Below, piece by piece: positions 33,858-38,786 of a stretch of DNA of 64,000 nucleotides; within the stretch, counting starts at the first letter, position 1; every line of letters begins with the position of its first letter. Origin of the DNA: Escherichia phage vB_EcoM_G5211. A program made the translations under genes and the position numbers. The stretch lies in the sequence record MK327947.1; one strand, written 5' to 3'. Under the pieces are notes generated by a model. That model made no database searches. It saw only the letters and a program-made list of their open reading frames with translations, and was not told the DNA's origin.

Positions 33858-34397
33858 CTATTCTCCATCAATTTTGTTTATATTGTAGCCCATGTTGCCT
33901 TTTTCTATTTCTCTCAACGCAACTGAATTAAACGCTCTTGCCGCATCTTGTTCGCTATCAAATCTCCCTATATGAACACTCTTTCCTTGTATATTAATAT
34001 GAACTAGCCATCTATTTGTGTACTTACACCAACTTACCCCGTTATATTTTGATGATGCACCTTTAAATTTAGTTCTGTTTCTATTATTGACAGAATAATC
34101 AGTACCTCGTAAATTTTCTATATGATTGTTCAGCTTGTTTCGGTCGATGTGATCTATAACTTTAGGCTTATGCCCGTGAAACATATGATAAATCACATGA
34201 TGTATTAACTTCTTTCTATTGTCTACTGTTAGTTGAAGATATCCCCCATTATGTGGACTTCCAACCTCATCACCAACTTTAACTTTATTGCTTGTTGAAA
34301 CCTTTCTGAAAAGTTTACCATCTTCGTATTTAAATAGATAATGATACCTTTCGTAAAGTATTCGGTCCTCTTCCGTATAATGTATTACCTCATACAT
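33858..34397 (-). mobile_element. HNH homing endonuclease with AP2 DNA-binding domain, MobE-like
   Basis: HHVIYHMFHGHK...DHIDRNKLNNHIENLR HNH motif; C-terminal AP2-like domain; lies between nrdA and nrdB as T4 mobE. Confidence 0.7.
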
Positions 34398-34407
34398 AAT
34401 ATTTTAC

Positions 34408-34575
34408 TCACTTTTTAACACAAAATAACTTAGTATTTCTGTTTACTTCGCTATCCCGCTGCAATTCCTGCACAGCTTCAAAACAATTTTGATATGATGA
34501 AAACTCTACGCTGGTAACAGTTCCTTTATTATATACGCCTACGCTAACGGAAAGCAATAACCATAATGTAGCCAT
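34408..34575 (-). CDS. small protein (55 aa), paralog pair member
   Basis: Hand-translated MATLWLLLSVSVGVYNKG...; ATG overlaps upstream stop (TAATG). Confidence 0.4.
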   Translation of the reverse strand: MATLWLLLSVSVGVYNKGTVTSVEFSSYQNCFEAVQELQRDSEVNRNTKLFCVKK

Positions 34576-34748
34576 TAGTTCACCTTTTGTTTTTCAACGC
34601 AATATAGATTCATAAAGCGTTTATTGTCTTCGCTGATAATCTCGCGAGCTTTAACGCAATCCTGCTTTGTTGCAAACTCAATGCTTGACATATTTCCGTA
34701 ATTATACATTGAATTGCTTATTGCAATCAATAACCATACAGTAGCCAT
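34575..34748 (-). CDS. small protein (57 aa), paralog pair member
   Basis: Hand-translated MATVWLLIAISNSMYNYG...; TAATG coupling on both sides. Confidence 0.4.
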   Translation of the reverse strand: MATVWLLIAISNSMYNYGNMSSIEFATKQDCVKAREIISEDNKRFMNLYCVEKQKVN

Positions 34749-34915
34749 TATCCGACAACCTCAAAACATTTATCATCAGGAAGAATCGCCCATTCTACAC
34801 CGTATTCATCCTCGACGTAGTAGCAAGTCCCATCATGTCGAGCATCATATTCATCACCAACAACAAAGCTATCAGCTAGTTCAAAATCTACAGCAACACA
34901 TTTTAATTTGGTCAT
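34748..34915 (-). CDS. hypothetical small acidic protein (track ORF extends to 34978 from GTG)
   Basis: ATG at 34915 directly downstream of early cassette. Confidence 0.45.
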   Translation of the reverse strand: MTKLKCVAVDFELADSFVVGDEYDARHDGTCYYVEDEYGVEWAILPDDKCFEVVG

Positions 34916-34982
34916 AATAAAATCCTCACTTGTTTTTGATGGTTGTATTATAGCGGGGATTTCTCCCCGCGTCAACACTTAT
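34916..34982 (-). promoter_or_regulatory. early promoter/leader cassette with GC palindrome
   Basis: TTGACG, GCGGGGAGAAATCCCCGC, TATAAT. Confidence 0.5.
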
Positions 34983-34983
34983 T

Positions 34984-37274: not shown

Positions 37275-37299
37275 GGGGGCTTTCGCCCCCCTTTTTTTT
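37275..37299 (+). terminator. hairpin + T8 oriented for plus-strand (antisense) transcription, between td and nrdA
   Basis: GGGGGCTTTCGCCCCCC followed by TTTTTTTT on plus strand; U-run overlaps td stop codon. Confidence 0.45.
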
Positions 37300-38518
37300 A
37301 TACTGCCATTTGAGCGGTGATCGCTGGATGGCTTTGATAGTTGTGAATTTTAAAGTCTTTAGGAGTTTTTGTCAATACCTCATCTAAAGATTTAAATTCC
37401 GGCAACTCAATTGTTGGTTTATCAAACGGAACACGGCTTAACTGTTCCATAACTTGGTCAAAATGGTTTTTGTAAATGTGAGTATCTCCACCAGAGAAAA
37501 TCAGTTCTCCTACCTCAAGATCACACATTTTCGCTATGATGTGAGTTAACAGCGCATAGCTGGCGACGTTAAAGGGCAAGCCCAAAAAGCTGTCTACGCT
37601 TCGCTGAAACCACATACAAGACAATTTACCTTCATTGACATAGAATTGCACGAAAGGATGACATACACCTAATACAGCATTATGTGTTCCTTGTACGTTC
37701 CATGAGTCAATAATGATCCGGCGATCCGTTGGATTGTTTTTAATTTGTTCAATCACGTTTTGTAACTGGTCTTCCCAAATCTTCGGGCGATAGACATATT
37801 CTTCATCGTCTTTAGTGCTTGATGTGTCTACGTCCATACTAACAAACATCGTGGTATCCGGTGCTATAATATCCCCACCCAGATAATCACTATCAAGCAG
37901 ATAACCGAAATAACCATCATCTACCCATTCCTGGAATCCCCACAAGCAATATGCATCATTAACAAAATTAGATTGAGTCTTCCAGTGGTCTGCTACCAGA
38001 ATATAATCAAACTCTTCATAACGCATACCACGCCAGATAGCACATAAACGGTCTTCTGTGTCATTGGTTGGCGTAAAGTCTTCTACCCACGGGTGCTTAA
38101 ATGTATGTGTATATTTGCTCTTAACGCGCTTAATTTTGATTTCACCATGTGGATGAATCGGTTTGCGTCGCCACGCCATACCATACATATTGCCGACATT
38201 ATAACCATTGAATCGCAAGGGATTCTTTTCTTTCATATCAAGACAGTTGCCGCGCCAAATATCAAAGGCTTCCTCGTCAAACTTGCCTCGTGTAATTTCC
38301 TGTAAGCGACGGCGGTCAAGTGATCCCTCCATAAACCATAGCAATTCGCCAATTACAGAGGCTGTAGCCATCTTTTTAGTGGTAAGTAAGGGGAAACCCT
38401 TGCTTAAGTCAATTCGCATCTCTGCGCCGAATTTAGATAGCGTACCTACCCCCGTGCGGTCTTCACGAGGCCAGCCATTATCAAGAACATCATGCAACAG
38501 TTTCAAATATTCTTTCAT
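37298..38518 (-). CDS. td: thymidylate synthase with ~125-aa internal insertion, no intron
   Basis: TS N-terminus and core incl. catalytic-Cys region VCHPFVQFYV and RSVDSFLGLPFNVASYALL; insertion between WRRKP and IWEDQ vs E. coli/T4 TS. Confidence 0.8.
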   Translation of the reverse strand: MKEYLKLLHDVLDNGWPREDRTGVGTLSKFGAEMRIDLSKGFPLLTTKKMATASVIGELLWFMEGSLDRRRLQEITRGKFDEEAFDIWRGNCLDMKEKNPLRFNGYNVGNMYGMAWRRKPIHPHGEIKIKRVKSKYTHTFKHPWVEDFTPTNDTEDRLCAIWRGMRYEEFDYILVADHWKTQSNFVNDAYCLWGFQEWVDDGYFGYLLDSDYLGGDIIAPDTTMFVSMDVDTSSTKDDEEYVYRPKIWEDQLQNVIEQIKNNPTDRRIIIDSWNVQGTHNAVLGVCHPFVQFYVNEGKLSCMWFQRSVDSFLGLPFNVASYALLTHIIAKMCDLEVGELIFSGGDTHIYKNHFDQVMEQLSRVPFDKPTIELPEFKSLDEVLTKTPKDFKIHNYQSHPAITAQMAV

Positions 38519-38786
38519 CCCACATCACCTTTTTCTTATTGATTGCTTTCTTACGCAGTTTTGCTACTGTCTCGTCAATATCGATAAAGACAACTCCACG
38601 GTCGAATATAGTAGCAGGTCTTGAGATATCGCTATTTTCCTGTACTGGAAGCCATGATGCGCTCGCTTCATCATAGAGATATTGTAAACCGTAATAATCT
38701 ACGGCTACTGCGTAGTTTTCACTGGTAGCTGACCATAATTGAATAATACCGACTTTCATTATTGTTCCCGTCCGCAATGTAAACAC
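38490..38786 (-). CDS. hypothetical protein
   Basis: ORF only; overlaps td start by 29 nt. Confidence 0.4.
   Translation of the reverse strand: MFTLRTGTIMKVGIIQLWSATSENYAVAVDYYGLQYLYDEASASWLPVQENSDISRPATIFDRGVVFIDIDETVAKLRKKAINKKKVMWDERIFETVA

What the first reader, a model, noticed from the sequence alone, without database searches (positions are those of the whole stretch)
37781..38158. Thymidylate synthase with a ~125-aa in-frame insertion and no intron
The td ORF (406 aa) has the canonical TS N-terminus and catalytic core, but about 125 extra residues (approx. aa 121-246) sit between the WRRKP segment and the IWEDQ...RRII segment when compared with E. coli ThyA and T4 Td. The insert has no stop codons, is not at the T4 td intron position, and lacks intein junction residues (no N-terminal Cys/Ser, no C-terminal His-Asn). 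It appears to be a lineage-specific extra domain. Both td and nrdB are intronless here.
Basis: partly seen in the sequence, partly recalled or inferred. Interest (0 to 1): 0.55.

Follow-up and report, generated by a model that had tools for sequence, protein, structure and literature searches.

The report
Homing-endonuclease fossil inside thymidylate synthase
The 126 extra residues in this RB49-like phage's thymidylate synthase are a trimmed, inactivated remnant of a homing-endonuclease-type mobile element that sits in frame, unspliced, in one surface loop; full-length and apparently still mobile versions occupy the same loop in dozens of other phage thymidylate synthases.

Summary
The td ORF (37298-38518, minus strand, 406 aa) carries one block of 126 residues (aa 121-246 = 37781-38158) between WRRKP and IWEDQL, which is the E. 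coli ThyA 102-109 loop. It is neither an intron, an intein nor an artefact: 58 Krischvirus genomes carry it.

It is not a lineage-specific invention. Profile comparison shows it is a reduced copy of the atypical HNH module of "IPA-HNH" homing endonucleases (for example ICP1 Gp59). About 70 other thymidylate synthase (TS) clusters carry 190-360-aa versions at the same loop, and all 60 inserts of at least 188 aa keep the invariant D-K-D motif. Related free-standing genes sit in split polymerase and ribonucleotide reductase genes.

The window copy has lost the N-terminal beta module, the Cys loop, the motif residues K, Y-S, C and N, and the C-terminal DNA-binding part. It is acidic (net -11), is predicted to fold confidently, and is under purifying selection (dN/dS about 0.13-0.3).

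Among jumbo Asteriusvirus phages the insert is polymorphic. It arrives with a divergent block of flanking TS sequence, as expected from gene conversion. The window Td carries the same hitch-hiking upstream flank.

Best reading: a fixed, nuclease-dead fossil of an in-frame, splicing-independent homing element, in a TS that keeps every catalytic residue I checked. Any current function of the insert is unproven.

The parts
37298..38518 (-). td gene: thymidylate synthase of 406 aa including the insert, one continuous ORF
   Evidence: ORF list. Pfam PF00303 scores 282 bits against a cut-off of 24.3. NCBIfam TIGR03284 scores 282 bits. 58 near-identical Krischvirus td genes.
38159..38518 (-). TS N-terminal segment, aa 1-120 (R21, E58, W88, Y112, WRRKP)
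   Evidence: Alignment with E. coli ThyA and T4 Td; motif positions.
38159..38263 (-). Upstream flank, aa 86-120 (DIWRGN...RFNGYNVGNMYGMAWRRKP). This signature travels with the insert.
   Evidence: 54-82% identical to long-insert TSs, but only 30-40% identical to insertless TSs, T4, E. coli and P0017. The N-terminal 85 aa show the opposite trend. The same GNMY signature lies inside the replaced block of UE-S1 td.
37781..38158 (-). The insert, aa 121-246 (126 aa): degenerate IPA-HNH-type homing-endonuclease module
   Evidence: Block boundaries. hhalign of the window-led insert profile against free-standing proteins gives probability 100%, E 1.5e-42. The TS-insert profile against ICP1 Gp59 gives 98.2%, E 3e-14. 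dN/dS is 0.13-0.3.
38066..38158 (-). Insert aa 121-151: outgoing strand (GEIKI) and linker. This is what remains where long inserts have an approximately 80-aa beta module.
   Evidence: Alignment; AF2 secondary structure shows E125-129.
37838..38065 (-). Insert aa 152-227: retained core of the module, with helices 152-170, 176-188 and 194-199 and a beta hairpin at 205-208 / 223-226
   Evidence: AF2 models. Invariant W, W, F, D, T and F are kept. BFVD Foldseek matches to TS-with-insert and free-standing proteins, TMq 0.53-0.64.
37982..38017 (-). EEFDYILVADHW, aa 168-179: the place where the R-C-Y/Cys loop of intact modules is deleted. It is also a 4-aa indel hot spot within Krischvirus.
   Evidence: RB49 and P0001 have EEFDSEYNLFLVADHW, which accounts for td genes of 1233 versus 1221 nt.
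37883..37900 (-). LLDSDY, aa 207-212: degenerate form of the invariant L-D-K-D motif (Lys replaced by Ser)
   Evidence: D-K-D is invariant in 25 free-standing proteins and in 60 of 60 TS inserts of at least 188 aa. The window reads D-S-D.
37838..37870 (-). IIAPDTTMFVS, aa 217-227: degenerate form of the Y-S-x-x-T-C-x-F motif
   Evidence: Y-S has become I-A and C has become T.
37781..37837 (-). Insert aa 228-246: acidic loop MDVDTSSTKDDEE and return strand YVYRPK. It replaces the helix with the invariant Asn and the NUMOD/HTH-like tail of long inserts.
   Evidence: Alignment; AF2 shows E240-244; the YVYRPK junction is conserved across TS inserts.
37298..37780 (-). TS C-terminal segment, aa 247-406 plus stop (R266, R267, C286, H287, R306, S307, D309, N317, D345, H347, Y349)
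   Evidence: Residue mapping to E. coli ThyA; PDB alignments with aa 250-406 matching E. coli 110-264.

Best explanation
The insert is the fixed, eroded remnant of a homing-endonuclease-type mobile element of the IPA-HNH kind. The element inserted in frame into the codons of a permissive surface loop of thymidylate synthase (E. coli ThyA 102-109), and it is translated as part of the enzyme without RNA or protein splicing.

Shown here:
- The insert is homologous to the IPA-HNH module.
- Larger, motif-intact copies sit at the same loop in many unrelated phage TS genes.
- The window copy has lost the N-terminal beta module, the Cys loop, five motif residues, the helix carrying the invariant Asn, and the C-terminal DNA-binding tail.
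- The TS catalytic residues that I mapped are all intact.
- The insert is predicted to fold confidently and is under purifying selection.
- The insert is present or absent among close Asteriusvirus relatives, and its presence goes with a replaced block of flanking TS sequence.

Inferred:
- The ancestor arrived by endonuclease-driven gene conversion. It brought about 35 codons of donor TS sequence upstream, the GNMY signature that the window Td still carries.
- The nuclease then decayed, as in the usual homing cycle.
- The remnant persists as a harmless, well-folded bump. Clean deletion is rare, misfolding variants would damage an essential enzyme, and an occupied site can no longer be cut by related endonucleases from co-infecting phages.

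The enzyme itself most likely works as an ordinary dimeric TS.
For: Homology:
- Same-site inserts in jumbo phage UE-S1 and Vibrio phage D148 were found by tblastn.
- Their inserts hit PHROG 'HNH endonuclease' families at 4e-32 and 4e-24.
- hhalign gives 100% and 98.2% probability against free-standing proteins and ICP1 Gp59. Gp59 is a founding IPA-HNH homing endonuclease gene (PMC10448857).

Spread:
- An exhaustive profile search finds 10,295 representative proteins at E<=0.001.
- About 66 of the best 150 are TSs broken at HMM positions about 100-110.

Degeneration:
- All inserts of at least 188 aa keep D-K-D, and 40 of 70 keep all eight motif residues.
- All inserts of 178 aa or less, the window among them, have lost them.
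- Net charge is -11, against +4 to +14 in long inserts.

Constraint:
- dN/dS of the insert is 0.13-0.3, against 0.01-0.1 for the core.
- pLDDT of the insert blocks is mostly 88-98.

Mobility:
- UE-S1 td (1554 nt) and 121Q td (930 nt) are about 95% identical outside a central block. That block holds the insert, about 30 codons upstream and about 100 codons downstream, and is only about 50% identical.
- The core of P0017 is 84% identical to an insertless TS but at most 63% identical to any other insert-bearing TS.
- The window flank aa 86-120 groups with long-insert TSs.
- Free-standing relatives sit in split DNA polymerase and RNR genes and next to TS genes.

TS residues are intact.
Against: - The window insert alone matches PHROG 2081 only at E 0.06. 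The link rests on intermediate sequences.
- Purifying selection and a confident fold fit an exapted function equally well.
- The mosaic in UE-S1 could come from ordinary recombination without an endonuclease.
- The representative library is clustered at 50% identity, which biases nearest-neighbour comparisons; only the P0017 case is robust.
- I could not inspect model coordinates, so the position of the insert relative to the active site and the dimer interface was not measured.
Confidence: 0.75

Rival explanations
1. Exapted accessory domain. The remnant has acquired a new job in the Krischvirus lineage, for example docking TS into the T4-type dNTP-synthesising complex or onto another phage or host protein. 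It would then be kept for that reason rather than as a tolerated fossil.
For: dN/dS is 0.13-0.3 across Krischvirus and against P0002. The insert is retained with no frameshift or stop in lineages whose TS cores are only about 60% identical (P0003-P0006). The compact fold is predicted confidently. There has been a marked shift to an acidic surface, net -11. The insert is fixed in all 58 genomes.
Against: No partner or phenotype is known. The insert evolves 3-20 times faster at non-synonymous sites than the core within Krischvirus. A 4-aa indel polymorphism lies in its middle. Selection against misfolding of an essential enzyme gives the same signal. The short inserts differ a good deal from each other (35-51% identity).
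Confidence: 0.17
2. Still-active mobile element or DNA-binding domain. The window insert itself would bind or cut DNA, for homing or for regulation of td.
For: It is homologous to a homing-endonuclease module. A beta hairpin corresponding to the motif region is retained.
Against: Lys of D-K-D, Y-S, Cys and Asn are all replaced. The beta module, the Cys loop and the NUMOD/HTH-like tail are deleted. Net charge is -11. There is no presence/absence polymorphism among 58 genomes. Base composition shows no anomaly.
Confidence: 0.03
3. A spliced element, or a hidden gene in another frame. [quoted passage not shown]
For: In-frame insertions at conserved sites are typical of inteins. A precedent exists for an out-of-frame HNH hidden in an in-frame insertion (PMC11855218).
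Against: The first residue is Ile, the last is Lys and the +1 residue is Ile, and there is no Hint or intein Pfam hit. No Rfam intron is found. The in-frame translation is itself homologous to proteins. The longest stop-free stretches in the other frames are 85 codons on the opposite strand and 49 on the same strand.
Confidence: 0.03
4. Ordinary loop expansion. The residues arose in situ by gradual growth of a variable loop, and the similarity to endonuclease modules is convergent or spurious.
For: The loop varies in length among TSs, with classes of 5, 10, 11 and 27-33 residues.
Against: Profile-profile probability is 100%, E 1.5e-42. Invariant W, W, F, D, T and F are shared. Graded intermediates exist between 126 and 290 aa.
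Confidence: 0.02

Closest known systems
IPA-HNH homing endonuclease genes (ICP1 Gp59, Gp115-116, Gp209; Barth, Dunham and Seed 2023, PMC10448857)
   Same: The sequence module is the same. The TS-insert profile matches ICP1 Gp59 at 98.2% hhalign probability. The lineages that paper lists as enriched, the Barbaviruses (Rheinheimera phages) and ICP1, dominate my tblastn hits. There is also the same association with nucleotide-metabolism and replication genes.
   Different: Those are free-standing genes with a C-terminal AP2 or NUMOD domain. Here the module is embedded in frame inside the target protein. In the window it is truncated, has lost the invariant motif residues and has no DNA-binding partner domain. 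The paper does not mention thymidylate synthase and states that T4 has no IPA-HNH genes.
ShiLan domain and the 'lone LAGLIDADG' insertion in mycobacteriophage DNA methylases (Arsenault, Gosselin and Gogarten 2025, PMC11855218)
   Same: Both are insertions at a conserved site of a phage enzyme. They read through in frame, have no detectable splicing apparatus, are patchily distributed among close relatives, and are predicted to loop out of the host protein.
   Different: In ShiLan the endonuclease is encoded in another frame and the in-frame product is a low-confidence hairpin. Here the in-frame product is itself the endonuclease-like domain and is predicted to fold confidently. The host gene here is an essential-pathway enzyme rather than a dispensable methylase.
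Inteins with homing endonuclease domains
   Same: An in-frame mobile insertion at a conserved site of a nucleotide-metabolism enzyme, with the endonuclease translated as part of the host protein.
   Different: There is no Hint domain and no Cys/Ser/Thr or His-Asn junction residues. The insertion lies in a surface loop and is apparently tolerated rather than excised.
T4 td group I intron with I-TevI, and free-standing mobE / HNH-AP2 genes of T4-like phages
   Same: Both are homing elements that target td or nrd genes of T4-type phages. This window also carries a canonical HNH_3+AP2 gene between nrdA and nrdB.
   Different: The site differs, lying about 65 codons upstream of the T4 intron site. 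The nuclease family differs, and no RNA splicing is involved.
The 50-residue 'small domain' insert of Lactobacillus casei-type TS
   Same: A length-variable surface region of TS that tolerates extra residues.
   Different: In the L. casei sequence as I recall it, the 50 residues lie between the IWDEW segment and the GDLG..YG segment, about 15 residues upstream of this loop. I dropped my initial idea that the sites coincide. Enterococcus phage 163 carries the endonuclease module at that other site.

Membership tests
Thymidylate synthase ThyA (PF00303 / TIGR03284) | Profile match above the curated cut-off over the whole fold | tested here: met
   PF00303 scores 282.4 bits against a cut-off of 24.3, in two stretches. 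TIGR03284 scores 282 bits against 108. The best PDB hit is E. coli TS at 1.5e-68.
Thymidylate synthase ThyA (PF00303 / TIGR03284) | Catalytic and substrate-binding residues (E. coli R21, E58, W80, Y94, R126, R127, C146, H147, R166, S167, D169, N177, D205, H207, Y209) | tested here: met
   All are present in the window Td: R21, E58, W88, Y112, R266, R267, C286, H287, R306, S307, D309, N317, D345, H347, Y349. Enzyme activity itself cannot be tested with these tools.
IPA-HNH homing endonuclease module | Sequence homology to the module of ICP1 Gp59 and free-standing relatives | tested here: met
   hhalign of A4 (window first) against A5 gives 100%, E 1.5e-42. A3 against Gp59 gives 98.2%. The window insert alone is weak, with PHROG 2081 at E 0.061 and phage alia protein against the window at E 4e-5.
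IPA-HNH homing endonuclease module | Invariant polar motif D-K-D ... Y-S ... T-C-x-F ... N, plus R-C-Y | tested here: not met
   The window reads D-S-D, I-A, T-T and D, and the R-C-Y segment is partly deleted. Inserts of at least 188 aa keep D-K-D in 60 of 60 cases.
IPA-HNH homing endonuclease module | Partner DNA-binding domains (N-terminal beta module; C-terminal AP2 or NUMOD/HTH) | tested here: not met
   Both are absent from the window insert. They are present in long TS inserts and in free-standing proteins.
IPA-HNH homing endonuclease module | Variable presence among close relatives (mobility) | tested here: not met
   The insert is fixed in 58 of 58 Krischvirus td genes. The feature is met for the long form in Asteriusvirus.
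IPA-HNH homing endonuclease module | Endonuclease activity and HNH (beta-beta-alpha-metal) fold | tested here: inconclusive
Intein | N-terminal Cys/Ser/Ala, C-terminal His-Asn, +1 Cys/Ser/Thr, Hint fold | tested here: not met
   The insert starts IHPHG, ends YVYRPK and is followed by I. There is no Hint or intein Pfam match.
Group I/II intron | Structured RNA, with interruption of the reading frame | tested here: not met
   No Rfam match at gathering score in 31.5-41.5 kb. The ORF is continuous, and its translation is homologous to proteins.
ShiLan-type insertion (out-of-frame hidden HNH) | A long ORF in another frame of the insert that encodes an HNH endonuclease | tested here: not met
   The longest stop-free stretch in another frame of the same strand is 49 codons, and on the opposite strand 85 codons.

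The most novel reading that the evidence does not exclude
Thymidylate-synthase-embedded IPA-HNH modules are a distinct class of splicing-independent homing element. The full-length forms (for example UE-S1, KP13-7 and about 60 metagenomic clusters) would be active endonucleases made as a domain of a working TS. They would cut insertless td alleles at the codons of the WR/IDQ loop and copy themselves in with a co-conversion tract. The Krischvirus 126-aa insert would be the late, nuclease-dead stage of that cycle, kept partly because an occupied site is immune to cutting by relatives.
Probability: 0.4. Interest if true: 0.8.

Novelty: new variant of a known kind. Interest (0 to 1): 0.62.

Why it matters
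Homing endonuclease genes are thought to survive inside essential genes only by hiding in self-splicing introns or inteins, or by sitting between genes. Here the element appears to survive simply by landing in a loop where an extra domain does no harm. It would be an in-frame case in an essential-pathway enzyme, alongside the recently described ShiLan insertion.

The data give a series of forms that can be tested in order:
- a free-standing gene next to td;
- an intact 240-aa insert that is polymorphic among Asteriusvirus phages;
- the 126-aa fossil fixed in RB49-like phages;
- possibly 30-aa loop remnants.

Practical consequences:
- TS genes longer than about 400 aa in phage genomes should not be annotated as "HNH endonuclease" or "hypothetical protein". 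Both mislabels occur.
- The E. coli 102-109 loop is a naturally validated site for domain insertion into TS.
- The GNMY and LGxCHP signatures in phage TS sequences may mark past invasion rather than vertical descent.

Tried and rejected
- The word-indexed protein search with the insert profile returned only 8 hits, and with a 188-aa long-insert query it returned none. The exhaustive HMM search was needed.
- No Pfam or NCBIfam family covers the module.
- I first thought the site was the L. casei 'small domain' site. The L. casei sequence as I recall it, compared with the alignments, places that insert about 15 residues upstream, so I dropped the idea.
- I first read the module as a pure DNA-binding domain. 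Four things point instead to the nuclease-type module: the invariant D-K-D/Y-S/T-C/N motif, its N-terminal position before AP2 or NUMOD domains, 170-180-aa proteins made of only the beta module plus this module, and the HHsearch result in PMC10448857.
- DNA binding by the window insert was rejected on charge, net -11.
- Intein, intron, hidden out-of-frame ORF and artefact were each tested and rejected.
- My first core-identity table used hmmalign --trim, which aligned only the C-terminal half of insert-bearing proteins. I redid it on insert-excised sequences. Only the P0017 result is robust, because the representative library is clustered at 50%.
- Literature searches found no description of the RB49-type Td insert. 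The 2002 RB49 genome paper was not available.
Full report
**What is there**

The window comes from an RB49-like T4-type phage (Krischvirus). The td region is 96-98.6% identical at nucleotide level to 58 phage records, among them RB49, Phi1, JSE, GEC-3S and kvi. The td ORF is 37298-38518 on the minus strand and encodes 406 aa. It lies in the order gp32 ... frd - small ORF - td - nrdA. Pfam and NCBIfam identify thymidylate synthase (TS) at 282 bits, but as two separate stretches.

Alignment with E. coli ThyA, T4 Td and 19 relatives shows one block of 126 extra residues. It spans aa 121-246, between MYGMAWRRKP and IWEDQL. E. coli has TPDGR (loop 102-109) and T4 has DFGG at that place. The block maps to 37781-38158, exactly the coordinates given. 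The TS residues that matter are all present: R21, E58, W88, Y112, R266, R267, C286, H287, R306, S307, D309, N317, D345, H347 and Y349.

**What it is not**

- It is not an intein. The insert begins with Ile, ends with Lys and is followed by Ile, and no Hint or intein profile matches.
- It is not an intron. No Rfam family reaches threshold in 31.5-41.5 kb, and td and nrdB are each continuous.
- It does not hide a gene in another frame. No other frame holds a long ORF; the longest stop-free stretches are 49 codons on the same strand and 85 on the opposite strand.
- It does not stand out in composition.

**What it is related to**

A tblastn search with the insert found the same-site block in the TS of jumbo Asteriusvirus phages. 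UE-S1 has a 517-aa TS, and the match is 34% identical at 2e-12. It also found the block in a Vibrio phage D148 protein that is annotated 'HNH endonuclease' but is in fact a TS-like protein with the insert. There were weaker hits to free-standing 'HNH endonuclease' and 'AP2' proteins.

The longer inserts match PHROG 'HNH endonuclease' families 2081, 953 and 374 at 4e-32 to 1e-14. The window insert alone reaches only E 0.06 against PHROG 2081.

A full-length search returned 17 TSs of 401-613 aa with a block at this loop. An exhaustive profile search with the aligned inserts found 10,295 representative proteins at E<=0.001 and 3,328 at E<=1e-10. Of the best 150, about 66 are TS proteins interrupted at HMM positions about 100-110. 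The rest fall into three groups:
- 170-290-aa free-standing proteins;
- proteins with two tandem modules;
- proteins that join the module to an AP2 domain or to I-HmuI NUMOD-like domains.

No Pfam, NCBIfam or PDB entry covers the module.

The literature supplies the name. Barth, Dunham and Seed (PMC10448857) defined 'IPA-HNH' homing endonuclease genes from ICP1 Gp59, Gp115-116 and Gp209. These are atypical HNH domains that only HHsearch can detect. They usually carry a C-terminal AP2 domain and are common in Barbaviruses and Flaumdraviruses. My tblastn hit in ICP1 is Gp59 itself. The TS-insert profile matches Gp59 at 98.2% probability, E 3e-14. The window-led insert profile matches the free-standing proteins at 100%, E 1.5e-42.

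Free-standing members sit where homing endonuclease genes usually sit:
- between the two parts of a DNA polymerase gene in phage alia;
- inside a fragmented ribonucleotide reductase gene in Lactococcus phage AM4;
- two genes from td in Vibrio phage K412;
- directly after the 3' end of a TS gene, in the case of P0137, which is a free-standing copy of the entire long insert.

**The window copy is a stripped-down, inactivated version**

Twenty-five free-standing proteins share the invariant residues W, R, (C), Y, W, F, D, D-K-D, Y-S, (T)C, F and N. Among 70 TS inserts, all 60 of at least 188 aa keep D-K-D, and 40 keep all eight motif residues. All inserts of 178 aa or less have lost them. The window reads D-S-D, I-A, T-T and D.

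Compared with a long insert, the window copy also lacks four parts:
- the roughly 80-aa N-terminal beta module;
- the R-C-Y/Cys loop, at a spot that still shows a 4-aa indel among Krischvirus genomes;
- the helix that carries the invariant Asn;
- the C-terminal NUMOD/HTH-like part.

Its net charge is -11. Long inserts are +4 to +14 and a free-standing protein is +7. DNA binding by the window insert is therefore unlikely.

**It is nevertheless a real, constrained domain**

AlphaFold2 on the full protein gives mean pLDDT 93.3 and pTM 0.91. The insert blocks are mostly 88-98. The predicted elements are an outgoing strand, three helices, a beta hairpin and a return strand. Modelled alone, its core stays at pLDDT 84-97.

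Nei-Gojobori estimates on five td genes give dN/dS of 0.13-0.3 for the insert in most pairs, and up to 0.6 in the closest pairs, which rest on very few substitutions. The core gives 0.01-0.1. The insert is therefore constrained, but less so than the enzyme. The short form is shared with more distant T4-like phages that have the same synteny (P0002 to P0006).

**Evidence that the full-length element moves**

Within Asteriusvirus, UE-S1, KP13-7 and phiKp_21 have a 1554-nt td with the insert. 121Q, PBECO4 and about 30 others have a 930-nt td without it.

UE-S1 and 121Q are about 95% identical over 1.5 kb on each side, over td nucleotides 1-270, and from about nucleotide 1380 onward. The central block is only about 50% identical. 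It holds about 30 codons upstream of the insert, the insert itself and about 100 codons downstream. This is the pattern expected from double-strand-break repair with co-conversion of flanking sequence, although ordinary recombination is not excluded.

The replaced block carries the RFNGxxxGNMY...WR and LGxCHP signatures, which about 22 of the 70 insert-bearing TSs share. The window Td shows the same thing. Its aa 86-120 are 54-82% identical to long-insert TSs but only 30-40% identical to insertless TSs. Its first 85 residues show the reverse trend.

Separately, the TS core of P0017 (insert of about 270-278 aa) is 84% identical to an insertless TS but at most 63% identical to any other insert-bearing TS. 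The element is therefore found in at least two very different TS backgrounds at one site.

**Interpretation**

The window insert is best read as the late stage of a homing cycle. An IPA-HNH-type element entered the td loop in frame, bringing a short donor tract with it. It was tolerated because the loop is permissive: insertless TSs already vary there between 5 and 33 residues. It then lost its nuclease and DNA-binding parts and became fixed.

Why it persists is inference. The candidate reasons are selection against misfolding of an essential enzyme, the rarity of clean deletion, and protection of the occupied target site from related endonucleases. A newly acquired function is the main rival. 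I cannot separate the two with sequence data.

The closest published analogue of an unspliced in-frame homing insertion is the ShiLan domain of mycobacteriophage methylases (PMC11855218). There the endonuclease is read in another frame.

I found no paper that describes the Td insert of RB49-like phages or TS-embedded IPA-HNH modules. The library lacks many subscription-journal papers, and the 2002 RB49 genome paper was not available.

Noticed in passing
window 33858-34397 (-): A 179-aa ORF lies between nrdA and nrdB. It is a canonical free-standing homing endonuclease: Pfam HNH_3 at 1e-9 plus AP2 at 4e-7. This is the position mobE occupies in T4. It is a different HNH type from the td insert.
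   Followed up: partly
window 34398-34983: About 590 nt between the HNH-AP2 ORF and the nrdA stop codon contain no ORF of 90 aa or more on either strand. The stretch could hold small genes, regulatory RNA or endonuclease debris.
   Followed up: no
window 38490-38786 (-): A 98-aa ORF with no Pfam match overlaps the start of td by 29 nt. It is annotated as a hypothetical protein in RB49, Phi1 and JK32.
   Followed up: no
L002:2632-4065 (Vibrio phage D148, OZ196545.1): This protein is annotated 'HNH endonuclease' but is a 477-aa TS-like protein with the insert at the same loop. Several TS motifs are altered: ETRSG for DRTG, LRS for QRS, SFYNIWSY for LPFNIASY and LKDAHTY for GGDTHIY. It may be an inactive TS or a TS with altered specificity.
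   Followed up: partly
L003:2090-3565 (Enterococcus phage 163): A 491-aa TS-family protein carries the same endonuclease-type module plus an HTH, but at a different site. The site is after IWDSW, which by my recollection of the L. casei sequence is its 'small domain' position. It is also the top BFVD structural match (491 aa). This looks like an independent invasion of TS at a second permissive loop. P0238 may be similar.
   Followed up: partly
L017:1501-2430 (phage 121Q td) and P0019-P0117: Many 'insertless' TSs carry 27-33 extra residues in the same loop, in several unrelated sequence classes. In 121Q the end of this loop (SHGVVMKRTTDQL) resembles the return junction of the UE-S1 insert (THVVRPKIYIDQL). 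These loops might be deletion scars of older elements.
   Followed up: no
P0143, P0153, P0198, P0200, P0218, P0230, P0259: Seven insert-bearing TSs have a second extra segment of about 20-45 residues near E. coli position 152-158, in the hairpin after the catalytic Cys.
   Followed up: no
L016:1-1560 (metagenome contig): P0137 (264 aa) is a free-standing copy of the whole long TS insert, junction-like ends included. It lies immediately downstream of the 3' end of a TS gene (...IKAPLSVG*) and upstream of a DNA-polymerase-like gene. It may represent the free-standing stage that precedes in-frame insertion.
   Followed up: partly
long TS inserts P0007, P0008, P0011-P0013, P0017 (first insert residue): Most long inserts begin with Cys or Ser (CNPHG, CEPHG, SEPHS) and carry an H-x-C about 20 residues later. 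This could be a small metal site at the base of the domain, or a coincidence. It is absent from the window, which reads IHPHG.
   Followed up: no
L008:671-1693 (contig carrying P0002): In the closest non-Krischvirus relative, a 340-aa gene with CapR domains lies between gp32 and frd. CapR is a DNA-binding domain associated with homing endonuclease genes in PMC10448857. This points to other endonuclease-related genes around this nucleotide-metabolism cluster.
   Followed up: no
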